64,000 bases of DNA from Nitrosopumilus sp. (GTDB lineage: Archaea > Thermoproteota > Nitrososphaeria > Nitrososphaerales > Nitrosopumilaceae): contig OZ244732.1 of assembly GCA_965219345.1 (NCBI GenBank), positions 640,001 to 704,000 on the forward strand, read 5' to 3'. Each line of letters opens with the position of its first letter. The first letter of the stretch is position 1. The translations under genes and the position numbers were made by a program. The notes below the pieces were generated by a model, which was not told the origin of the DNA, did not search any database, and saw only the letters and a program-made list of their open reading frames with translations. Below are positions 2,739 through 59,488 of this stretch, piece by piece.

Positions 2739-3409
2739 ATGGGCAGTATTCTAAATGATGTAAATACACTTATTGCAAAACGAGTAGGTGGTTCAGCAAG
2801 GCTAAAACACATCAAAGAGACTTGAAAATAATAAACAATTGTATGATTCTGATCGTAAATATTTGGATGAATTAATAGGAAAACATCTCTTTTCAAAGAC
2901 TCAATTTGAGCATGATTCTCCCCCAAATAATATCGAACAATCTGCAAATAAGCCATCTAATCCTAAAACTGAGAATAATCCAAAACCAGAAAACAATCTT
3001 GAAAATAATCCCAAAACTCAAGAATCATTTTGTGGAAATTGTGGAGCATCAAAAGCTAAAGAACATGATTTTTACAAAGTGTGGACAACAAAATAATTCC
3101 AATTTTCAAAAATCTAAAAGAAGCAACTTTTGGTATCTACTTCCAATAGTTTTTGGTATTGCTGGTGGATTGATTGCTTATCTTGTTTTGAGAAAATCTG
3201 ATTCAAAAAAAGCAAGAAACTGTTTGATTATTGGTGTTGGTCTTACTTTAATTGGTTTATTCATTTTGTCGGCTGTTGATTTTTTCCCAAATGATAGTAA
3301 TAATGTTGATTTGGGTAATGAGGATTGGGTTGAAGAATACTGGGCACAACATCCAGATGAAGATCCATGTAATGATCCAACTGCTAGAGCGTTTGGATTG
3401 TGTGGATAA
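2739..3409 (+). pseudogene. Zinc-ribbon membrane protein with two frameshifts
   Basis: MGSILNDVNTLIAKRVGGSARLKHIKET, shift near 2822, ENNKQLYDSDRKYLDEL...FCGNCG...F, shift near 3072, TKCGQQ... followed by two TM helices. The three frames join into one double-zinc-ribbon membrane protein. Confidence 0.7.
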
Positions 3410-4017
3410 TGAGATTTGCAATAATTATCGCAATAGCATTTGTTTTATTGATTCCAACCACTGTTTTTGCACAATCATCAAGTCAAGACGATAACTGTCC
3501 TATTGGAACAAAACCTGTGGTTAAAGGTACAACGATTGAATGTGTCCAAATCAGTAATGTGAAAAAAACTTGTCCTGACGGAACTTATCAAGGCAAAGAT
3601 AATCAAGGAAATTTTGCTTGTAGAGATATCAAATCAAACCAAATTGTTGATCCTAATACTGGACTCATGTATGATTCTCAAACTGGTGAAATGATTCTTG
3701 ATAACGATCAATCAACGTATGTTGGAATTGGTATTCTTATTTTGATTGTAATTATAGGGGGAATTATTGCCATATCTCGTAAAAAAACACCTTACAAGGA
3801 TTTACCTAGAAAACATTTTTCAGATTCTATAAAAGAAGAAGTATTGCGAAAACAAAATCATAGATGTGCTGATTGTAATCGTGTTTTAGATGTAGTAGAT
3901 TTCGATCATATTGATGCTGATAAAACTAATAATGATATTTCAAACTGTCAAGCTCTTTGTCCAAACTGTCATGCTAAAAAAAGTAGAAATGAACGAAGTA
4001 TAATGATGAATAAATGA
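3409..4017 (+). CDS. Membrane-anchored HNH endonuclease with signal peptide and Cys-rich external domain
   Basis: Signal MRFAIIIAIAFVLLIPTTVFA; TM VGIGILILIVIIGGIIAI; C-terminal CADC..DFDHID..N..N..LCPNCH. ATG overlaps the upstream TAA. Confidence 0.8.
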   Translation: MRFAIIIAIAFVLLIPTTVFAQSSSQDDNCPIGTKPVVKGTTIECVQISNVKKTCPDGTYQGKDNQGNFACRDIKSNQIVDPNTGLMYDSQTGEMILDNDQSTYVGIGILILIVIIGGIIAISRKKTPYKDLPRKHFSDSIKEEVLRKQNHRCADCNRVLDVVDFDHIDADKTNNDISNCQALCPNCHAKKSRNERSIMMNK

Positions 4018-4120
4018 AATCTGCATCATCTCTAGGAAGTTACCATATTAATTTTATCAAAAATATCCACAGATACAGTAAAGTTGGATAATCATCTTAT
4101 AAATAAGAATATTGGATAAT

Positions 4121-4246
4121 CTATTCAGTATTCTTTTTTGTTTCTAAATTCACATTTGATTTTACAACGTAACTCAGAAGATTCTTCTCACAGTTGAATA
4201 GATTCTTTGCATTTGATTTTAGGTTTGAACTGTCCTCTCTAGTCAT
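4121..4246 (-). CDS. Possible 41 aa hypothetical ORF
   Basis: MTREDSSNLKSNAKNLFNCEKNLLSYVVKSNVNLETKKNTE, just downstream of 4295..5290; no motif. Confidence 0.2.
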   Translation of the reverse strand: MTREDSSNLKSNAKNLFNCEKNLLSYVVKSNVNLETKKNTE

Positions 4247-4294
4247 CTTGGTAAACAAAGTAGGAAGATCTTACTAATAACAATAACGTTGAAC

Positions 4295-5290
4295 CTATAT
4301 TTTTAGAACTATACCTAGAATAGCTAAGGATATAGGAATAAAGAACCACCATTTGAATTTCTCACGTACATCTAGATTGTGAATTAATCCTGCTATTATC
4401 AAAGCAGCCCCCATAACTGCAATATCTATTTCTAGAATTTTTGTAGAAATCAAATCTAAATCAAATATGGATGGTATCCATGAACAATTCTCATTCATAG
4501 GATAACATGATTTTGATAACATCGTAACAAGTGGCGCAATAATCAATATACTGAGAATACCTTTCACAAATGATTTGGTTTTCTTAGTAGGTGTAAAAGA
4601 ATAATTCATTGAAGTTTTTGCTGATGATCTTGGATTAACTCTGATTGCAATAGAATCTGAATATTTATTATAATAAATTGTATCTCCCTTTTCATTTTTC
4701 CAACCTTTAGAATAATCTTTCTTAAATTCTTCTCCCGAACTATCATTAATGGTAATTTTCTTCTTATCAAATTCATAATCTTTTGGTGGTATTATGATAT
4801 AGAAAACCTCATGGTCAGAGACTGAAAGAAATTCAAGATCAAATGAAGTGTTAATATTTTCTTTTTCTGCATCATATTCCATAGTAATAACTCTAGAATC
4901 ATTAGGATAGAATTTTTTATCATGTGGTAATTTTATCCATAAAAGAAATGTTCTGTATTCTTGTATATCTTCTAAAAGAGATGTAAGCGATGTTATAATA
5001 TTTTCATCTTCAGATTCATCTAAAGTTTCTTCAATTAGTGCAATAGTGTATTTGTTAGTAATCAAAGGAAGTTTTGTTCCATCTGAATCATAGATTTTGA
5101 GATTTGGTAATAATTTTGTAACTTTAATGAAAATATTATCAACTCCATCCTCATTGTCTGTTCTTGAAATTAAAGTAAATTCACGTTTTAATTTCCTACT
5201 GTCTATTGTAACATGATCTATAAAGAAACGTTCTCTTAAAATTTCAATTTCTGTTCCTATTATGTTAGATGAATTAGAATTATCTGACAT
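4295..5290 (-). CDS. Hypothetical protein with a soluble N-terminal domain and about 3 C-terminal TM helices
   Basis: Intact 331 aa ORF with a hydrophobic C-terminus; family not recognised. Confidence 0.7.
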   Translation of the reverse strand: MSDNSNSSNIIGTEIEILRERFFIDHVTIDSRKLKREFTLISRTDNEDGVDNIFIKVTKLLPNLKIYDSDGTKLPLITNKYTIALIEETLDESEDENIITSLTSLLEDIQEYRTFLLWIKLPHDKKFYPNDSRVITMEYDAEKENINTSFDLEFLSVSDHEVFYIIIPPKDYEFDKKKITINDSSGEEFKKDYSKGWKNEKGDTIYYNKYSDSIAIRVNPRSSAKTSMNYSFTPTKKTKSFVKGILSILIIAPLVTMLSKSCYPMNENCSWIPSIFDLDLISTKILEIDIAVMGAALIIAGLIHNLDVREKFKWWFFIPISLAILGIVLKI

Positions 5291-5293
5291 TTT

Positions 5294-5410
5294 TTATATC
5301 TCCGTGGATAAAATTATTGCATTTGAAATTTTTTCATGACTGAAAACCGTTACTACGCCATTGCGTTTACGGATATCAATAATTGTATTTTCTATTTGTG
5401 AATTGGCCAA
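5294..5410 (-). pseudogene. ATP-cone N-terminal fragment (38 aa)
   Basis: TTG start; ANSQIENTIIDIRKRNGVVTVFSHEKISNAIILSTEI* matches the ATP-cone pattern I.KR.G....F...KI..AI. Confidence 0.55.
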
Positions 5411-5643
5411 TAATAATCTCCCGCAGTGGTTAGAAAGAATACGGGTATTAATGGTTCTACAGTTTTTTCTTAAAGTTCAGTTCAATAATATTGACACCAT
5501 TACTATGAAGTTCATACAGACATAACATTGATCGCATATAACGATGATCGCAATGTCGAAACTGTTCAAAAAGTTTTAAAAAATGTCTGTAACTAGTTTT
5601 TTCTTTTTGAATTTTAGATTACATATAGAATTTTAATAAAAAA

Positions 5644-5913
5644 TTAGAGATCTATATTGCAGTTCATACAATATAGAGATCCATTTTTCATTCTATCTTG
5701 ATATTTTTTAGGATGCTTACATTCAGGCACAATTTGTGTTCGTAACATCTTTAAAATTACAAGTTCTGATTCTAGATTTTTTCTTATTAATTGAGCAATT
5801 TCAAACGGATCTTTTTGAGAAAATGATCTCTCTAATGAATAGATCTCTTCATGATGTTTGGTTTTCTCACATAGATAGTAATCTAGACGTTTGATCGCTT
5901 TTACTAAAGTCAT
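5644..5913 (-). CDS. Hypothetical protein with a C-terminal Cys/His putative zinc site
   Basis: 89 aa; ECKH...YCMNC. Confidence 0.6.
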   Translation of the reverse strand: MTLVKAIKRLDYYLCEKTKHHEEIYSLERSFSQKDPFEIAQLIRKNLESELVILKMLRTQIVPECKHPKKYQDRMKNGSLYCMNCNIDL

Positions 5914-5966
5914 TAACTCATTAATTTCATCAAATGCTTAAGTTCATAATTCATGTAGTAGATTTA

Positions 5967-6437
5967 TTGAGTGATTACAAACCAAAGCATATAGTTTTTG
6001 ATAAAGACAAATTTGTAGAAGAAAGAGTAAATCTTGGTGGATTAGCTCAAGTAGGAATGAATACTACTGGCGGAACTGACATCGATTAGGTAATTGAACA
6101 TAGGGGAGGATTCATCATAATGGAAAACAAGACTTTCTCAAAAGATTGGATAAGTATTCCAATAGGTCAGATACTTACTTTTGAACAAATGTATAAGAAA
6201 TTAAATGCAGATGGAAAATGTCATTTCCTTATTTTTGGACTAGAGAATGATATTGATTGGACAAATTCTGATTCTGAAATGTGGTATTTTGAGATGGAAG
6301 ATTGGAATAATGGAAAGATTTGTCCTAATAGAACAATTTCGTTCAAAAAATACGGTGTTCATAAACGAGAAATGACCAAAATTACAATTAAAGAATATAG
6401 AGATCTGATGGAAAAATATTGGAAAGAATTTGAATAA
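5967..6437 (+). pseudogene. PD-(D/E)XK-like nuclease interrupted by an in-frame TAG
   Basis: Frame open from ATG 5934 or TTG 5967: ...GGTDID*VIEHRGGFIIMENK...; TAG at 6087-6089 is in frame with ORF 6120..6437. Confidence 0.5.
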
Positions 6438-6606
6438 GATTTATAATTTCTTTTTCAAGAAATTTTCAAATTTTTATGTGTGGATCCGATTATACCATTA
6501 CAGGTTTTATTGCTCGTGGAAATATGCCTGTTAATTTGATATTATCTGTAGTCAGTTTGATTTGAATCGTAATCTTTAATCATCATAGTCACTTGATAAC
6601 AATTCT

Positions 6607-6813
6607 ATGGAGTTTAAGGATAGAGTATGTTGTGTGTGTGATAAACACAAGAAATTTCTTGCACGTATCAACGCGGGTTAAAAACTCTATTGTATGCAAT
6701 GTTAGGCAAAAATTACCAAAGAACATGGTCAGGGATACTGGAAACCTTGTTCTTTTGAAGAATTCCTAGAGGCACCATCATCTGCCATTAGAAACAAATA
6801 CGAAAATTGTTAA
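6607..6813 (+). pseudogene. Small zinc-finger protein with two internal stops
   Basis: MEFKDRVCCVCDKHKKFLARINAG*KLYCMQC*AKITKEHGQGYWKPCSFEEFLEAPSSAIRNKYENC*. Confidence 0.4.
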
Positions 6814-6822
6814 TACCTATTT

Positions 6823-7656
6823 TTAACAAGAACTTCTTCTTGCTATTTCATCAATGATATTTTTCAACATTAATCGAAGATCACTACCTTTTGAATAATT
6901 ATTTGAATATATTCCATAATTTGTTCGTCTTCCTCTTGCAAGTTCGTATGTTCTTTTTGGATTTTGTGTACCCATTATTCCAATGCAATGTCCACCATTA
7001 CTTCGTACTGCAGAAAAACATGGAATATCACTAGGTCCATCTCCAATATAGATCATATTTCCAAATGGTATTCTACGTTGTTCATTTTTTATTGAATCAT
7101 TTACTAAATATGGATATTTACGTAGATTATCTTTATCAATTCCTTTGTTAATTGCATAAAGAAATTTTGTTTTTTCTGTAAAAGTCACTGTCGAACTTAT
7201 TGCATTGTATTTTCCAGTTGTAGAATCTATACTATAATTAGCTGCAAAAATATCTTTGAATTGTTCTGCAAATAAACAACCTTTCACGAGATCTTCTATT
7301 CCTGCAGAAATTATGTATCCTTCAATATTGATTCCAGATTTAATGCAATCAGGATCATTTGAAACATATTTTTGTAATTCTTTAATGAAAACATTAACAC
7401 CATTATACGGTTTGATTTTTTTTGCGAGTTTTTGCATTTCCTTAGGATTATTTTGCTTAATTTTTCCATTTTTCATTAGCCTCAAAATTTCATGAAGATA
7501 TGCTTGCGGTGGATCCCAGCCTTTTTGGATAAAATTTTCATCTATATCTTTCCAGAATTCCTTTAAATCAATTTTATTTTCTTTGAGCAAAAATTCAGTA
7601 GTATCAGAAACTAATGTTGCATCACAATCACAAATTATAGCAACAGTATTGTGCAT
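6823..7656 (-). CDS. HAD-superfamily hydrolase
   Basis: Motif I DCDATL, motif II IISAG, a conserved K, and motif IV YIGDGPSD. Confidence 0.85.
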   Translation of the reverse strand: MHNTVAIICDCDATLVSDTTEFLLKENKIDLKEFWKDIDENFIQKGWDPPQAYLHEILRLMKNGKIKQNNPKEMQKLAKKIKPYNGVNVFIKELQKYVSNDPDCIKSGINIEGYIISAGIEDLVKGCLFAEQFKDIFAANYSIDSTTGKYNAISSTVTFTEKTKFLYAINKGIDKDNLRKYPYLVNDSIKNEQRRIPFGNMIYIGDGPSDIPCFSAVRSNGGHCIGIMGTQNPKRTYELARGRRTNYGIYSNNYSKGSDLRLMLKNIIDEIARRSSC

Positions 7657-7980
7657 ATTCTCATTTTGTCATACATAATAAAAAACGATCCTAGAACCAA
7701 TATACTTAAAATCATAAGATAGGGTTTTGATGAATATGCCTTGGTAGAATCAGATCACAAATTGAACAGTGTCGAATTTTTGTGGAATTAAACTAGTTTT
7801 TTGAGATCCAAAACTGAACACTTGGATAAAATTTATCATGTCCCTAGTTTACAGCAATTTGGACAGATCCCGTAGATTGAACAGTGCCGAATTGGTTCCT
7901 GCGCGTGCGCCTGATCCATCGCAATTCCGGACGCGGCCAACAGAAGGAGGCCGAGCGCGACGTGTTGGTATTGCATGCCG

Positions 7981-9229
7981 TTAATCATGTTTTTCACCGC
8001 TCCTCACTTTGGCCGATTCTGGTATGTCTATTCTCTCAAGCCAGTCCTCGTCCAATTTCGAGATCTGGCCGATCCAGGCTATCTCGCCTGCAGTTGCCTC
8101 TATTGCGATCACCTGGGCCATTGAGCCACCATGGCCACCCCTCTCAACAAACGGAGGGTATTGGCAATATCCCACGAGCACAGTATAGAAAGGCACTCCG
8201 GCACGCATACCACGTCCAGCCAGTTCACCTTCATCAGCAGGTTCGAATGTGCACTTTTCTTCATCGTACAAATCCACATGCCTCATGGCAAAGTCAAAGG
8301 CAAGTTTTTCTATCTGGCTTGCTGGCAACAGGGTGCCTTCCTCATAATCATCAACCTGCAAGCCGCGAAATTCCAGTAGCAAGTACGGCTTGATGAAATC
8401 GTAATCGACGAAGCTCCAGACGCTCATGTTAAGCCAGCTTCCATACACAATTGTACCTGTACGTCCGCTGTTTAGTCCGAAGATTGGAAACCCTGCATTC
8501 TCCATGAGGGATCTGAGTAATTCGTCGCGCTCTCCGTATGGGATATTCTCGTATATCCTGTACTCTATCCTCGTTATGACATCCGGGTATTCCGAGTTTG
8601 ACCACGTACGGAACTTGTTGCCCATTTCGGTTACATATGTGACATGGCCGTATTCCGACCTGCTAACTGCCGGGAGGATCAGCTTGTCCCCGATTCCGCT
8701 TGCAAGGCGGGGCATGACGGTATTTACTGCCTCTTCCGTCAGGACCGGTAACCAGACTCCAGACGGGTTTGCCATTCTTTTTTCTACCCCGGACAGGGTT
8801 ATCTTGTTGTCTGCCACGTAGTAGAGCGGCTCGTACACGGATGTCAGGCTTTCATTTGCGGGGGGTGCATGGCCTGACACGGGCAGACTCGGGGACGTTT
8901 CAGATGCATCCGCGGGGGCACTTGGTTGTGCCGAGTCCGGGGTGCTGCCTGACTCTGGAGTGCCCGTTTTTTGTTCTGGTTGTGGCAACGCCTCCCATCC
9001 GCGCAGGACCAGTCTTTCTGCCGTGTCTGGATAGACGCATGCGATCGTGCCGCTGGGAGATCTTAGGAGGATCTTTTCATCATTGCACCGGACGTCGGCA
9101 ACTGCCACGCCCTGTTGCAGCTGCTTTAGGGGCGACGGCGCGTAAAGATGCGTCGGTGCCGCGTGTGCTGCCAGAGACCAGCAACACTGCCATCACGATG
9201 CAGAAAAGCGCGATAGTTGGGATGCCCAA
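7981..9229 (-). pseudogene. High-GC secreted hypothetical protein with a thaumarchaeal SPLKQ...ACV...RGW domain, frameshifted after the signal peptide
   Basis: The signal peptide (TTG 9229, GIPTIALFCIVMAVLLVSG) is out of frame with LYAPSPLKQLQQGVAVADVRC..SPSGTIACVYPDTAERLVLRGW. Shift near 9148; the remainder is ORF 7981..9108. Confidence 0.65.
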
Positions 9230-9406
9230 GGCCGCGTTTTGGGAAACGCGCGAAAAGTGATCACCATGATGACAAGTTGTGGAATGCATGGGAACCATTA
9301 CCATAATCCAAATTCAAAGTTAATAAGGAATTCTTCAATCGGTTCTGTAACATCTTCGGATGTTAGACATAAAATCAGATCTTATTCGTGTTAACTGCCG
9401 TCGCTT

Positions 9407-9545
9407 TTACAGAAAAAAGAATAGTGTTACCTTCAACCATCCGATTGCCCTCTCAAGAACATTGACATCCTCGTTGAATTTACCAATGCTAGAATTACAG
9501 CTTCCACATATCCGGCCCCTTATTTTCCTGTCTTGTGATTATGAT
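9407..9545 (-). pseudogene. Endonuclease VII-like C-terminal fragment
   Basis: HNHKTGK, 1 nt shift, RGRICGSCNSSIGKFNEDVNVLERAIGWL. Matches the DHxHxTGxxRGxLCxxCN..G...D...L..AI.YL pattern. Confidence 0.6.
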
Positions 9546-10483
9546 AAGCCCTGTCATTTTGTGTGCATGGTTTTCATCATGTTTTCTTGTAGCTAATGTA
9601 AAGGAATATGCCCTAAAACTATGAGATGTAATTTTGTAAAATCCGTTTGATGAGTATTTTTCATTATATCCTAATCTTTCCAAGACACTTGCCATTGTCA
9701 TTCGTTCTGCTCTTCCCCTAGTTTTGAAATCTCCTGTACTATTTGTAAAAACATAATCATCATCATTTAATTTGTGAAAATAAGTCATAATTTTCTCTCC
9801 ATATTCTTTTGAAACAAATGTTGTTCTACCAGCTTTGGTTTTTGTATATTCAGCATCAATCCTAATTGTTATTCTATCCAATGACAAATCCAAATCTTTT
9901 TTCTTAATGTGCAGTGCCTCCCCTGATCTCATTCCAGAACTACTGCAAGCCAAATACAATGCCTGTCTCTTTAGATTACGTGCTTGAGCTATACCAAATC
10001 TCTTAGTTCTTGTTTCTTTAGTGGATATTTTTCTTCAACAATCTTTCTTGGAAATCTTAGTATCTGTTTGATGTCTTGAGGATTTGTTTTTACTCCTAGA
10101 GAATAAAGAAATGTTCTGAGTATACTAAATCTAGTTCTGATTGTATAAGCTCCTGCTTTCTTTGAAATATTCCAGTCTATCCATTCTTGAAGGAAACTAT
10201 ACAGTGCATCTTCATATTCTTCGTCTCCTTGTTGCTTTTTTATTATAATTAACTCCCCGCAGATTTGATCAGGTGTACTTTGATGCTTTTCTAGAACAAA
10301 TTTCTTAAAATTATTAATCGCAGCTTGAATATTTTCTCGTGAGTTTGTAGGTAACGAGACATGTATCACCGAGTTCTGTGCCTATTTTGATTTGGCTTGA
10401 ATATTTTCTCGTGAGTTTGTAGGTAACGAGGCTAATTTTTCTTCATAATCCCTTGTTGTTTTCTTTTTGGTAAGAATACTCAT
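9546..10483 (-). pseudogene. Tyrosine recombinase/integrase pseudogene
   Basis: SSGMRSGEAL (box I Arg), TKTK, SHSFR (HxxR). Broken by a 72 bp insertion with a TAG at 10382-10384 and a frameshift near 9990; the C-terminal catalytic Tyr segment is lost. Confidence 0.85.
10323..10430. repeat. Perfect 36 bp direct repeat flanking a 36 bp unique insert (CRISPR-like unit)
   Basis: GCTTGAATATTTTCTCGTGAGTTTGTAGGTAACGAG at 10323-10358 and 10395-10430; insert at 10359-10394. Confidence 0.95.
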
Positions 10484-37219: not shown

Positions 37220-37894
37220 TTAGGACTGGGTTATTTTATTGAGAAATTTAATGGATTCTTCCTTTTCTTGTTTGGATAGTTTTAAAAACGCCTCTAGAAA
37301 CTCCTTTTGAATACCTAAAGATTCATCAGAAATTCCCCCAAGTTTTGATAGATCAAAAGGAAGTAGATCTTTAATTTTATTATTACAAAAAGCCTTTACA
37401 TATTTTTGAAGAATTGAATATGTAAAATTGGGGCTAGTCTTCAAAAGAGTAGAGAGAATTTTTTCAAATTCTTTTTCAGTAGATTCAGACTTAGAAAAAA
37501 ACTCATTCAGTAAATTTTCTCTATTTTCAATTTCACTTATTGATAGTGCTATCAAGATACCCTTTCTGGTCAAATGATAGTATGGAATTCCTATTTTTTG
37601 AAGAGCCTTTGGGCCTCTTTTTAGAGGTAACCTTCCATCCTCTTCCGCAATCTTCATTGGAATTAAAATCTTATCTAAATCACGAAATATCCCTGAATAG
37701 ATATTCTTCCAGGTAATTCCTTGTTTTTTTGCTATTCTTTGAGATATCCCTGTTCTGGTTTTCTCTGCAGGATTTACATTGCTGGCAAGTATTGTGATAA
37801 TTGCTCTCTGTCTATTCGCTTCTCCTGTTAATTCTTCACCTTTAGTCTTGAATGTATTAAAAATTGCTAGGTTAATGACTGATTTTACCGTCAT
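37220..37894 (-). CDS. Putative winged-helix protein, divergent from amt
   Basis: TRTGISQRIA..WKNIYSGIFRDL....YYHLTRKG wHTH-like pattern. Confidence 0.6.
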   Translation of the reverse strand: MTVKSVINLAIFNTFKTKGEELTGEANRQRAIITILASNVNPAEKTRTGISQRIAKKQGITWKNIYSGIFRDLDKILIPMKIAEEDGRLPLKRGPKALQKIGIPYYHLTRKGILIALSISEIENRENLLNEFFSKSESTEKEFEKILSTLLKTSPNFTYSILQKYVKAFCNNKIKDLLPFDLSKLGGISDESLGIQKEFLEAFLKLSKQEKEESIKFLNKITQS

Positions 37895-58576: not shown

Positions 58577-59488
58577 TTAATTTTTTCTAAATTGGTACAA
58601 CTTTAGAACTCCAAATGCAGGAATTCCGGCATACATTCCAATATTTAGTAGAATTAGAGATATTCCGTATCCTAACATCTCTTGTTCTGAATCAATGTCA
58701 ACATAATTCAGTAAAGACAATGACGATAACATTGGAGTTAGTGTTACTTTCACAACTTCTTTGAAAATTGGTCGCTCTCTTTCCAAATCAGCAATCATTG
58801 GTGAAAATGAATAATAGAATTGATTAAATCCAGCCATAAATGCAGTTCCGGATTCCGTTGATAAAATAGTATTATCTCTAAGTTCTCTTAATTGTTGTAC
58901 CTGTGGTGCCATCTCTGAACCAAATGTTGCAGTTGCAATAAGACAGCCACCACCTTCCTCTTCCATCATAACTTCCTCCTCCTCTTCCATCATAACTTCC
59001 GCATCCTCTTCCATCATAACTTCCTCCTCCTCTTCCATCATAACTTCCTCCTCCTCTTCCATCATAACTTCCGCATCCTCTTCCATCATAACTTCTTCAG
59101 CTACTGCTTCTTGTACTATGATCAAACCTTGCATCCAAGGATGAACCATACAGAAATAATCAAACTCACCTGCAGTGTCTGCAGTGTATTCATAAGAAGC
59201 ATCTACTGCTAAGAAACCAGAATCAAATACCTCACTTGGACCATCACTTGGATTTCCTGCTGTAAATGTGTGTGCTGCACTATCTGTGTTTGAGAATATT
59301 ATAACTTCGCCAACATTAACTGTTGCAGTATTTGGAATCCAACATCCATCCACTTCTTCACATCCTAGTACAGCAGAACCTGCTGCTGGTACAATTGTGA
59401 CTTCTGCAAAAGCAGCTGGGGTTGTTGCACCTATTCCAGCTACGATAGCAAATAGTACGAAGAAAGAGCAAATTGCTTTAGTCTTCAT
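58577..59488 (-). CDS. Blue copper (cupredoxin) protein with Met/Glu repeat linker and CFI-box-CTERM
   Basis: HTFTAG...YFCMVHPWM; GGGCLIATATFGS..LRELRD..FYYSFSP. Confidence 0.88.
   Translation of the reverse strand: MKTKAICSFFVLFAIVAGIGATTPAAFAEVTIVPAAGSAVLGCEEVDGCWIPNTATVNVGEVIIFSNTDSAAHTFTAGNPSDGPSEVFDSGFLAVDASYEYTADTAGEFDYFCMVHPWMQGLIIVQEAVAEEVMMEEDAEVMMEEEEEVMMEEEEEVMMEEDAEVMMEEEEEVMMEEEGGGCLIATATFGSEMAPQVQQLRELRDNTILSTESGTAFMAGFNQFYYSFSPMIADLERERPIFKEVVKVTLTPMLSSLSLLNYVDIDSEQEMLGYGISLILLNIGMYAGIPAFGVLKLYQFRKN
58958..59095 (-). repeat. Coding tandem repeat, 24 bp x about 6 (EVMMEE[DA/EE])
   Basis: GAAGTTATGATGGAAGAG(GATGCG/GAGGAG) units on the minus strand. Confidence 0.93.

What the first reader, a model, noticed from the sequence alone, without database searches (positions are those of the whole stretch)
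10323..10430. Repeat-spacer-repeat (36/36/36 bp) inside an integrase gene: possible natural off-target CRISPR spacer acquisition
Seen: a perfect 36 bp duplication of integrase coding sequence (SLPTNSRENIQA) flanks a 36 bp unrelated insert, ACATGTATCACCGAGTTCTGTGCCTATTTTGATTTG. Removing 72 bp restores a continuous frame (MSILTKKKTTRDYEEKLASLPTNSRENIQAAINNF); the insert adds an in-frame TAG that inactivates the gene. The duplicated target has a CTCGT/ACGAG stem and begins GCTTGAAT, 6/8 identical to the GTTTCAAT end of many archaeal repeats. Known: Cas1-Cas2 inserts a spacer-length fragment while duplicating one repeat length of target, and off-target integrations have been shown experimentally in E. 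coli. IS target duplications are much shorter. Inference: a fossil neo-CRISPR unit, or a Cas1/casposase-like event, that disabled a mobile element's integrase.
Basis: partly seen in the sequence, partly recalled or inferred. Interest (0 to 1): 0.82.

Follow-up and report, generated by a model that had tools for sequence, protein, structure and literature searches.

The report
Stray CRISPR spacer insertions across genome
The 36-36-36 base structure in the broken integrase gene is a real CRISPR spacer inserted at the wrong place, and it is one of about 30-37 such stray insertions scattered over this archaeal genome, a natural record of the CRISPR integrase missing its target.

Summary
Confirmed and extended. 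Window 10323-10358 and 10395-10430 are identical 36-nt copies flanking a unique 36-nt insert. Two congeneric genomes carry the same integrase with a single copy and exactly 72 nt less. One of them has an intact 373-aa gene. Contigs from other sequencing studies hold the structure, so it is not an assembly error.

The genome has a complete type I-G CRISPR-Cas system: a Cas4/Cas1 fusion, Cas2, 164 repeats of exactly 36 nt, and spacers mostly of 36-40 nt.

My scans found 37 such units genome-wide. Twenty-eight have the native period of 70-76 nt, each with a different duplicated sequence. Five further units have empty sites in relatives or in paralogous copies. Six or seven inserts are exact copies of distant chromosomal segments, against 0 of 163 native spacers. 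The targets share the end motif of the native repeat.

A second I-G species shows the same units.

Best reading (0.93): ectopic spacer integration by Cas4/1-Cas2. The integrase carries two more lesions, so this insertion need not be what killed it.

The parts
10395..10430 (-). Copy 1 of the duplicated 36-nt target. It lies on the leader-equivalent side when the unit is read on the minus strand, where the copy ends ...ATTCAAGC.
   Evidence: 100% identical pair. The orientation comes from the W-R-C end motif and A7/T30/T31 shared with the native repeat.
10359..10394 (-). 36-nt insert, the ectopic 'spacer'. It is unique in the genome and brings an in-frame TAG into the integrase frame.
   Evidence: No source was found. 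Its length equals the commonest native spacer length, 36 nt in 37 of 163 spacers.
10323..10358 (-). Copy 2 of the duplicated 36-nt target.
   Evidence: A single copy is present in G004 and G017.
9495..10483 (-). Tyrosine-recombinase (integrase) pseudogene. It carries three lesions: the 72-nt ectopic unit, a 1-nt deletion at about 9992/9993, and a 3' truncation after about 9522.
   Evidence: PF00589 match on 9495-9959, E 1.9e-10. Alignment to the intact 373-aa G004 orthologue.
7900..9490 (.). GC-rich block (48-55% GC in a 36% GC genome) abutting the truncated end of the integrase. It holds a 375-aa ORF (7981-9108, minus strand) with no Pfam match. It is context, not part of the unit.

Best explanation
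The unit is a fossil of one off-target (ectopic) spacer integration by the genome's own type I-G adaptation complex, the Cas4/Cas1 fusion with Cas2. Inferred steps: the complex, loaded with a 36-nt prespacer, attacked the two strands of the integrase gene 36 bp apart. That spacing is the same ruler it uses on its 36-nt CRISPR repeat. The site mimics the ends of the repeat: A at position 7, TT at positions 30-31, AAGC at positions 33-36. Gap repair then duplicated the 36-bp target on both sides of the insert. The product is not a working CRISPR unit. The duplicated sequence is integrase coding sequence, not a Cas-recognised repeat, and there is no leader. It simply adds 72 nt and a stop codon. 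The same process has left 28 units of native geometry in this genome, 37 counting a shorter class. They are enriched in GC-rich, probably acquired, DNA, and some lie in ordinary genes (pstA, pstB). Shown: the structure, the empty sites, the resident system with identical geometry, the recurrence, the shared target motif, and inserts that are exact copies of distant chromosomal DNA. Inferred: catalysis by Cas4/1-Cas2, the staggered attack and repair, and the timing.
For: Geometry. The native repeat is 36 nt. Native spacers are 36 nt (37 of 163), 37 (35), 38 (34), 39 (23), 40 (13) and 35 (8). Our unit is 36/36/36. The system is intact: Cas4g/Cas1g scores 754 bits against a cut-off of 560, and Cas2, Csb2, Cas7g, Cas8g/Csx17 and Cas3g are all open frames.

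Recurrence. Among exact direct repeats of 20 nt or more outside the array, 20 fall in the cell of length 36-39 and period 70-79, against 0-2 in neighbouring period cells of the same length row. A mismatch-tolerant scan gave 58 candidates. I kept 37 and dropped 21 obvious tandem or protein repeats. Each kept unit has a different duplicated sequence. Twenty-eight have periods of 70-76, mean 72.96 against 73.98 for the native array (KS p = 0.53).

Empty sites. Ours is empty in G004 and G017 and in a contig of run X1. Unit 1503080 is empty at two places in G052, and unit 1504869 in G018 (read from overlapping HSP coordinates). Units 1339320 and 1339961 have abutting HSPs that suggest empty sites in about 24 congeners; I checked the 35-37-nt overlap by hand in 5 (G056, G071, G011, G063, G021). 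Unit 1335276 is empty in 3 paralogous copies inside G000.

Inserts behave like prespacers. Six of 37 are exact copies of another chromosomal place, and a seventh matches at 34 of 35. In each case the match ends exactly at the insert boundaries. None of the 163 native spacers matches the chromosome outside the array beyond partial hits of 18-19 nt (Fisher p = 4.5e-6 counting seven, 2.8e-5 counting six). Mean insert GC is 0.427, native spacers 0.42, genome 0.36.

Target motif. Eighteen of 29 targets end in W-R-C in one orientation, like the native ...AGC. Random sites give 4.6, and 0 of 2000 simulations reached 18. In those 18, A at position 7 occurs in 14 and T at position 31 in 13, both as in the native repeat (p = 9e-5 and 5e-4).

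Second species. G161 has an I-G system with a 36-nt repeat. Its first 792 kb hold 7 similar units. For one of them, G000 has the empty site.

Published background. Off-target integration by Cas1-Cas2 is established in E. coli (Nivala et al. 2018, as described in 10.1101/148544 and PMC7054753, passages read). It is also shown in vitro for P. furiosus, at sites one repeat length apart that resemble the repeat (PMC6698737, passages read).
Against: No protospacer was found for this particular insert, so a foreign origin and a PAM cannot be shown.

Identity of the oriented targets to the native repeat over positions 1-33 is only weakly above random (mean 9.9 against 9.0, p = 0.08). The W-R-C pattern was partly chosen after looking at the data. 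The a-priori test, 'ends in C', gives 21 of 29 against 12.7 expected, p = 0.002.

Eleven of 29 targets lack the motif.

Among the 7 self-derived inserts, an upstream TTN, the PAM of the Geobacter I-G system (PMC6547450), fits in 3 at best, and only if the orientation may be chosen (my reading of the flanks printed). That is weak.

Nine of the 37 units have shorter periods (64-68) and duplications of 27-32 nt, which the 36-nt ruler does not explain.

G018 has no Cas1, yet it holds 2 lone pairs with a duplication of 28-32 nt and a period of 71 in 792 kb.

No biochemical evidence exists for this Cas4/1-Cas2.
Confidence: 0.93

Rival explanations
1. The unit was made by a Cas1-Cas2 complex, but not in this cell line by this system. 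On this view the integrated element, or its ancestor, was hit in another host with a 36-nt-repeat system and arrived already carrying the insertion.
For: Units are enriched in GC-rich, probably transferred DNA: 22 of 37 lie in 2-kb windows with GC of 0.40 or more, which make up 15% of the genome. The GC-rich islands are 88-89% identical to DNA of G018, a 54% GC genome. G018, without a Cas1, has 2 lone pairs of period 71. A shorter class (duplication 27-32 nt) exists and is confined to such islands.
Against: Our unit sits in AT-rich sequence; its 2-kb flank has GC 0.33. The gene is at the same chromosomal position, next to the FKBP gene, as the intact orthologue of G004. The duplication is exactly the resident repeat length. 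Units also lie in vertically inherited core genes (pstA, pstB) that are empty in the congeners examined. One unit is absent from three 96-99% identical paralogues in the same genome. Six inserts are exact copies of this chromosome.
Confidence: 0.03
2. A Cas-independent repair or replication accident, such as a templated insertion or template switch, created the duplication and the filler.
For: Templated insertions copied from distant loci are known products of break repair (recalled general knowledge). Six or seven inserts are copies of distant chromosomal DNA.
Against: Such accidents have no reason to give a fixed 36-nt duplication plus a 36-40-nt filler in 28 independent places, matching the resident repeat and spacer lengths. 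They also would not prefer targets ending like the repeat. No microhomology joins insert and flanks in the 7 cases where the source is known: the matches stop exactly at the insert ends.
Confidence: 0.02
3. A casposase or another transposase inserted a very small element, and the 36-nt repeats are its target-site duplication.
For: Cas1-family genes that look like casposases (open frames of about 410-420 aa) are common in the genus. G000 holds an 83-aa Cas1 fragment at C1:1123019-1123267.
Against: The insert is single-copy, has no terminal inverted repeats and differs in every unit. Casposon and IS target duplications are much shorter (recalled, not tested here). G000 has no intact second Cas1.
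Confidence: 0.01
4. Assembly or sequencing artefact.
For: Short-read assemblers can mishandle repeats longer than their word size. In run X10 the region is broken into unitigs at the repeat.
Against: In X10 a 96-nt unitig runs from copy 1 through the whole insert into copy 2 with 0 differences at depth 82. The 36-nt repeat unitig has depth 170, about twice the flanks (96-105). X12, from another study, has one 1341-nt contig across 10000-10580 with 1 difference. These runs may include the source of the assembly, so only X12 counts as partly independent.
Confidence: 0.01

Closest known systems
Off-target ('non-canonical') spacer integration giving neo-CRISPR units in E. coli (Nivala, Shipman & Church 2018, Nat Microbiol 3:310). 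The paper is not held; I know it only through citing passages in 10.1101/148544, PMC7054753, PMC11788318 and PMC6546382.
   Same: A spacer-sized insert flanked by a duplication of one repeat length at a non-CRISPR site, made by Cas1-Cas2.
   Different: There: type I-E, Cas1-Cas2 over-produced in the laboratory, rare events seen by deep sequencing, and only 'circumstantial evidence' in two other species (wording of 10.1101/148544). Here: a wild archaeal genome with a native type I-G Cas4/1-Cas2 and 28-37 fixed events with empty sites in relatives. Some disrupt genes. None has grown a second, different spacer: one search found only one unit with the same insert twice.
In vitro off-target full-site integration by Pyrococcus furiosus Cas1-Cas2 (PMC6698737, abstract and passages read)
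   Same: Integration at non-CRISPR sites whose two attack points lie one repeat length apart and which share bases with the repeat borders. Here the ruler is 36 bp, and the shared positions are 7, 30-31 and 34-36.
   Different: That work used plasmid substrates in vitro with a 30-bp ruler. Here the sites are natural chromosomal fossils.
Geobacter sulfurreducens type I-U (= I-G) Cas4/1-Cas2 adaptation (PMC6547450, passages read)
   Same: The same subtype and the same fused Cas4/Cas1. The predominant spacer length is 36 bp, and the repeat ends in AGC. About 30% of naive spacers come from the chromosome there, against at least 6-7 of 37 ectopic inserts here.
   Different: That study reports integration at the array only. 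An upstream TTN PAM could be matched for at most 3 of 7 self-derived ectopic inserts here (my reading).
Mini-arrays and solitary repeat units carried by viruses and other mobile elements (as reviewed in PMC8616872, passages read)
   Same: A single spacer between two repeats, often inside mobile-element DNA.
   Different: Those repeats are identical or similar to a host CRISPR repeat and are thought to function. Here every repeat pair is a duplication of local, unrelated sequence. Ours is 14 of 36 identical to the native repeat (my own count from the sequences), and related genomes show the site empty.
Casposon integration
   Same: A Cas1-family integrase that duplicates its target.
   Different: Casposons are kilobase elements with terminal inverted repeats and short target duplications (recalled). 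Here the insert is 36 nt and the duplication is 36 nt.

Membership tests
Ectopic (off-target) Cas1-Cas2 spacer integration | The target duplication equals the repeat length of a resident CRISPR system. | tested here: met
   The duplication is 36 nt. The native repeat is 36 nt, in 164 copies, 163 of them identical.
Ectopic (off-target) Cas1-Cas2 spacer integration | The insert length lies within the resident spacer length range. | tested here: met
   The insert is 36 nt, the commonest native length (37 of 163).
Ectopic (off-target) Cas1-Cas2 spacer integration | An intact adaptation module is present in the same genome. | tested here: met
   Cas4g/Cas1g, 561 aa, scores 754 bits over the 560-bit cut-off with no stops. 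Cas2 is 95 aa.
Ectopic (off-target) Cas1-Cas2 spacer integration | The state is derived: related genomes hold one copy of the target and no insert. | tested here: met
   G004 and G017 lack exactly 72 nt. A contig of run X1 joins the left flank directly to one copy.
Ectopic (off-target) Cas1-Cas2 spacer integration | The insert is a captured fragment of other DNA, that is, a protospacer exists elsewhere. | tested here: inconclusive
   For this insert no source was found. For 6-7 of the other 36 units an exact or near-exact source exists in the same chromosome.
Ectopic (off-target) Cas1-Cas2 spacer integration | The target resembles the borders of the repeat. | tested here: met
   Our target ends ATTCAAGC against the native ATTGAAGC (7 of 8) and has A7, T30 and T31. 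Genome-wide, 18 of 29 targets end in W-R-C against 4.6 expected.
Ectopic (off-target) Cas1-Cas2 spacer integration | Catalysis by Cas1-Cas2 is shown directly. | not testable with these tools
   This needs an in vitro or in vivo integration assay.
Functional CRISPR array (true neo-CRISPR locus) | The repeats are recognised by the processing nuclease, and there is a leader and further spacer uptake. | tested here: not met
   The duplicated sequence is integrase coding sequence, 14 of 36 identical to the native repeat (my own count). There is no leader. None of the 37 units has a second, different spacer. Transcription and processing were not tested.
IS / MITE insertion | A multi-copy insert with terminal inverted repeats and a short target duplication. 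| tested here: not met
   The insert is single-copy, and no inverted repeat lies at its ends.
Tandem duplication / coding repeat | The whole unit, including the middle part, derives from the ancestral local sequence. | tested here: not met
   The middle 36 nt are absent from the orthologues and unrelated to the flanks.

The most novel reading that the evidence does not exclude
Ectopic integration by type I-G Cas4/1-Cas2 is not rare noise in this archaeal genus. On this reading it is a standing mutational force that preferentially lands in, or is retained in, acquired DNA. It knocks out mobile-element genes such as integrases and transposases, giving a second, crRNA-independent way in which the adaptation module acts on invaders. 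The scattered units would also form an unselected natural archive of what the integrase captures, including self DNA and DNA of related species. The evidence shows the enrichment: 22 of 37 units lie in the 15% of the genome with GC of 0.40 or more. It also shows gene hits. It cannot separate targeting from mere tolerance of insertions in dispensable DNA.
Probability: 0.12. Interest if true: 0.95.

Novelty: new member of a known kind. Interest (0 to 1): 0.85.

Why it matters
Off-target spacer integration has so far been a laboratory phenomenon of over-expressed E. coli Cas1-Cas2, with only circumstantial hints in nature (10.1101/148544, passages read). I found no paper describing scattered natural units of this kind. 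That rests on my searches, and on passages of the thaumarchaeal mobile-element survey PMC6563490.

This genome offers dozens of fixed, datable events with known pre-integration sites. They have four uses.

1. They reveal the natural target rules of a type I-G integrase: a 36-bp ruler, with positions 7, 30-31 and 34-36 shared with the repeat.
2. They record what is captured before selection by autoimmunity. At least 6-7 of 37 inserts come from self DNA, against 0 of 163 in the array.
3. They show a real cost of carrying CRISPR adaptation genes: pstA, pstB and other frames are broken.
4. They give a simple genomic signature, a unique duplication of repeat length around a spacer-length insert, that can be searched for in all genomes. 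That search would measure integrase fidelity across CRISPR types and test the idea that new arrays are seeded this way.

Tried and rejected
Source of the insert. The exact 36-mer was not found in viral contigs, genome contigs or metagenome contigs. Blastn against the phage collection gave nothing. There was no match at 3 or fewer mismatches in 150 congeners. So no protospacer and no PAM can be given for this unit.

A second CRISPR array was considered at C1:1127417-1130756 (period 60). I rejected it because it lies inside a 1600-aa ORF (L005 12692-17494) and is a coding tandem repeat.

An orientation and motif search by expectation-maximisation over 60 nt was too noisy with 29 sequences, and it placed our own unit in the opposite orientation. 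I used the simpler end-motif test instead.

G018 turned out to be an imperfect negative control. It has 54% GC and many 75-nt protein repeats. With an objective 'lonely pair' filter it has 0 pairs in the class of duplication 35-38 nt and period 70-76. It does have 2 pairs with a duplication of 28-32 nt and a period of 71. Only the first 792 kb of G018 (1.89 Mb) and of G161 (2.23 Mb) were scanned.

The depth figures are per contig and were not used to estimate the share of cells carrying the unit. X15 covers only up to 10397, and X1 covers parts only. Parts without cover are not evidence.

Supplementary files of papers were not consulted. Those of Nivala et al. and of PMC6698737 may list natural or in vitro off-target sites that bear on novelty.
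Full report
THE OBSERVATION

Window 10323-10358 and 10395-10430 are identical 36-mers, and 36 unrelated bases lie between them. Neither the 36-mer nor the insert occurs anywhere else in the 1.91-Mb genome. On the minus strand the unit lies 55 nt into a gene. The N-terminal piece reads MSILTKKKTTRDYEEKLASLPTNSRENIQAKSK and stops at a TAG inside the insert. The C-terminal piece, 9495-9959, matches the phage-integrase family PF00589 with E = 1.9e-10.

IT IS AN INSERTION WITH A TARGET DUPLICATION

A DNA search of 40 relatives found the same gene in two congeners. Both alignments skip query positions 865-900, and the two halves overlap by 36 nt in the subject. The multiple alignment shows that G004 and G017 hold one copy of the 36-mer (33 of 36 and 35 of 36 identical) and lack exactly 72 nt.

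In G004 the gene is an intact 373-aa ORF in the same neighbourhood, next to the FKBP-type isomerase gene. Aligned to it, the G000 gene has two further lesions. One is a 1-nt deletion at about 9992/9993. The other is loss of homology after about 9522, where a GC-rich block begins. The gene is therefore a pseudogene with three lesions, and their order is unknown.

IT IS NOT AN ARTEFACT

Fifteen public runs hold at least part of the stretch, and six hold half of its words or more. I laid four of the 15.

- Run X10 has a 96-nt unitig from copy 1 through the insert into copy 2 without a difference. Its 36-nt repeat unitig has about twice the depth of the flanks.
- Run X12, from another study, has one contig across 10000-10580 with a single difference.
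- A metagenome contig in run X1 joins the left flank directly to one copy. That is an empty site in the environment.

X10 may be the source of the assembly and is not independent.

THE RESIDENT CRISPR SYSTEM HAS THE SAME GEOMETRY

Cas1 (PF01867) hits C1:1640274-1641116 inside a long open frame. NCBIfam names the 561-aa protein a Cas4g/Cas1g fusion (754 bits, cut-off 560), and Cas2 follows it. After a 178-nt leader comes an array of 164 repeats of exactly 36 nt, 163 of them identical. Its 163 spacers are mostly 36-40 nt long, and 36 is the commonest length. Beyond the array lie csb2, cas7g, cas8g/csx17 and cas3g, all open. This is a complete type I-G system. In the transcribed orientation the repeat ends ...ATTGAAGC, and our duplicated target, read on the minus strand, ends ...ATTCAAGC.

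THE UNIT IS ONE OF MANY

A k-mer scan for close direct repeats gave, besides the array, a series of isolated pairs about 36 nt long and about 73 nt apart. In a table of repeat length against period, 20 exact pairs fall in the cell of length 36-39 and period 70-79. Neighbouring period cells of that length row hold 0-2.

A scan that tolerates mismatches listed 58 candidates with periods of 62-82. I dropped 21 that are plainly tandem or protein-coding periodic repeats and kept 37. Twenty-eight of these have periods of 70-76. Twenty-three have identical copies and 14 have 1-2 mismatches, so the events differ in age. Two of the 37 (at 37490 and 243305) carry the same insert and are paralogous copies of one event.

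Every unit duplicates a different local sequence. The period distribution of the 28 resembles that of the array: mean 72.96 against 73.98, KS p = 0.53, Mann-Whitney p = 0.046.

MORE EMPTY SITES

- Unit 1503080 is empty at two places in G052, and unit 1504869 is empty in G018 (read from HSP coordinates that overlap by 33-35 nt).
- Units 1339320 and 1339961 lie 640 nt apart in a phosphate-transporter operon, in pstA and pstB. About 24 congeners show abutting HSPs there that suggest empty sites. I checked the 35-37-nt overlap by hand in five of them.
- Unit 1335276 lies in a multi-copy element, and three other copies of that element in G000 itself are empty.

Removing one copy plus the insert in silico lengthens the longest open frame across the site by 50 codons or more in 14 of 37 units.

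THE INSERTS BEHAVE LIKE PRESPACERS

Their mean GC is 0.427, the same as native spacers (0.42) and above the genome (0.36).

Six are exact copies of another place in the chromosome, and a seventh matches at 34 of 35. The matches stop exactly at the insert boundaries. Where the observed duplication departs from 36 nt (38 nt at 123645, 33 nt at 429362), the source sequence shows that the true duplication was 36 nt and that chance identity, or one mismatch, blurred the boundary.

None of the 163 native spacers matches the chromosome outside the array beyond partial hits of 18-19 nt. Fisher p is 4.5e-6 for 7 of 37 against 0 of 163, and 2.8e-5 for 6 of 37. This is what one expects if self-derived spacers are purged from a working array by autoimmunity but are harmless at ectopic sites.

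One insert (1173661) matches the G161 allele of a conserved gene better (35 of 38) than G000's own allele (30 of 36). This hints at capture of DNA from a related organism.

TARGET CHOICE

Eighteen of 29 main-class targets end, in one orientation, in W-R-C like the native repeat. Random sites treated the same way give 4.6, and none of 2000 simulations reached 18. The pattern was partly chosen after seeing the data. The prior test, 'ends in C', gives 21 of 29 against 12.7 expected (p = 0.002).

In the 18 oriented targets, A at repeat position 7 occurs in 14 and T at position 31 in 13, both as in the native repeat (binomial p = 9e-5 and 5e-4, uncorrected for 33 positions). Our own target has all of these. 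Overall identity to the repeat is otherwise near random (p = 0.08).

This pattern of a fixed ruler plus a few border bases is what was found for P. furiosus Cas1-Cas2 off-target sites in vitro (PMC6698737, passages read).

WHERE THE UNITS LIE

Twenty-two of 37 sit in 2-kb windows with GC of 0.40 or more. Such windows make up 15% of the chromosome (binomial p = 1e-9). For the main class the figure is 14 of 28. These islands are probably acquired DNA. Parts of them are 88-89% identical to G018, a 54% GC genome of the same genus. I cannot tell whether this reflects tolerance of insertions in dispensable DNA or a preference of the enzyme.

OTHER GENOMES

Eleven of 151 genomes of the genus, counting G000, have a full Cas4g/Cas1g. 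One of them is G161, whose repeat is also 36 nt. The first 792 kb of G161 hold 7 similar units. For the unit at 649261, G000 has the empty site.

G018 has no Cas1 match. In its first 792 kb it has no lone pair in the class of duplication 35-38 nt and period 70-76, but it has two with a duplication of 28-32 nt and a period of 71.

COMPARISON WITH WHAT IS KNOWN

Off-target integration by Cas1-Cas2 was shown in E. coli with over-produced proteins by Nivala et al. 2018. That paper is not held. Passages in 10.1101/148544, PMC7054753 and PMC11788318 describe it, and 10.1101/148544 says that the evidence in two other species is circumstantial.

The Geobacter I-G Cas4/1-Cas2 takes 36-bp spacers, about 30% of them from the chromosome, with an upstream TTN PAM (PMC6547450, passages read). 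Here TTN fits at most 3 of 7 self-derived inserts (my reading of the flanks).

My searches and passages of the thaumarchaeal mobile-element survey PMC6563490 turned up no description of scattered natural units of this kind.

The unit is not a functional array, a mini-array, a casposon, an IS or a tandem duplication (see the membership tests).

VERDICT

The finding is a member of a known kind of event, ectopic spacer integration. It is notable as a natural, fixed case, found in dozens of copies with pre-integration sites, in an archaeon with a type I-G system.

Noticed in passing
G000 C1: 431953, 1251065, 1265409, 1448839, 1483340 (= reverse-complement copy at 1826944), 1573079, 1573481, 1824847 (outside the window): A second class of X-Y-X units has shorter periods (64-68), duplications of 27-32 nt (36 nt in one case) and inserts of 32-39 nt. 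All lie in DNA with flank GC of 0.42-0.51. The 36-nt ruler does not explain them. They may be relics of another adaptation module or of a former host.
   Followed up: partly
G000 C1:404166 and C1:1448839: Two copies of one repeated sequence, which contains a palindrome, were hit independently at overlapping positions with different inserts. The duplications are 36 nt and 31 nt. This suggests a hot-spot target.
   Followed up: partly
G000 C1:1432749-1432926: This is a unit of period 73 present as X-Y-X-Y-X with the same insert twice. Allowing one mismatch, the duplication is 36 nt and the insert 37 nt. It is probably an ectopic unit later duplicated by recombination. It is the only multi-copy case, and no unit has two different inserts.
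   Followed up: partly
G000 C1:1339320 and 1339961 (L016 5321-6070): Two independent ectopic insertions 640 nt apart break pstA and pstB of a phosphate ABC-transporter operon that is uninterrupted in the congeners examined. I did not check whether a second pst operon compensates.
   Followed up: partly
G000 C1:1173698-1173735: This insert is closer to the allele of a conserved gene in another species (G161, 35 of 38) than to G000's own allele (30 of 36). This is possible capture of DNA from a related organism.
   Followed up: partly
window 7900-9490, and other islands such as C1:1502000-1521000: GC-rich blocks (48-55% GC) sit in a 36% GC genome. Parts of the islands are 88-89% identical to G018, a genome of the same genus with 54% GC. 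This suggests recent transfer between lineages of very different composition. The 375-aa ORF at window 7981-9108 has no Pfam match.
   Followed up: partly
G161 C1:643692-643801 (L072): In the second I-G species, one ectopic unit lies between the first repeat of the array and cas2, so it is inside or next to the leader.
   Followed up: no
G000 C1:1123019-1123267 (L002): An 83-aa Cas1 fragment with an internal TGA lies far from the I-G locus. It is a remnant of a second Cas1 or casposase.
   Followed up: no
window 58956-59092 (C1:698956-699092): A short coding-type tandem repeat of 24-nt units (TCCTCTTCCATCATAACTTCC...) lies here, unrelated to the finding.
   Followed up: no
window 2906-9500: Between an aminotransferase gene and the integrase pseudogene lie an HNH-endonuclease-domain ORF and several ORFs without Pfam matches. 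This is probably the decayed integrated element to which the integrase belonged. Its ends were not determined, and no tRNA gene lies in the window.
   Followed up: partly
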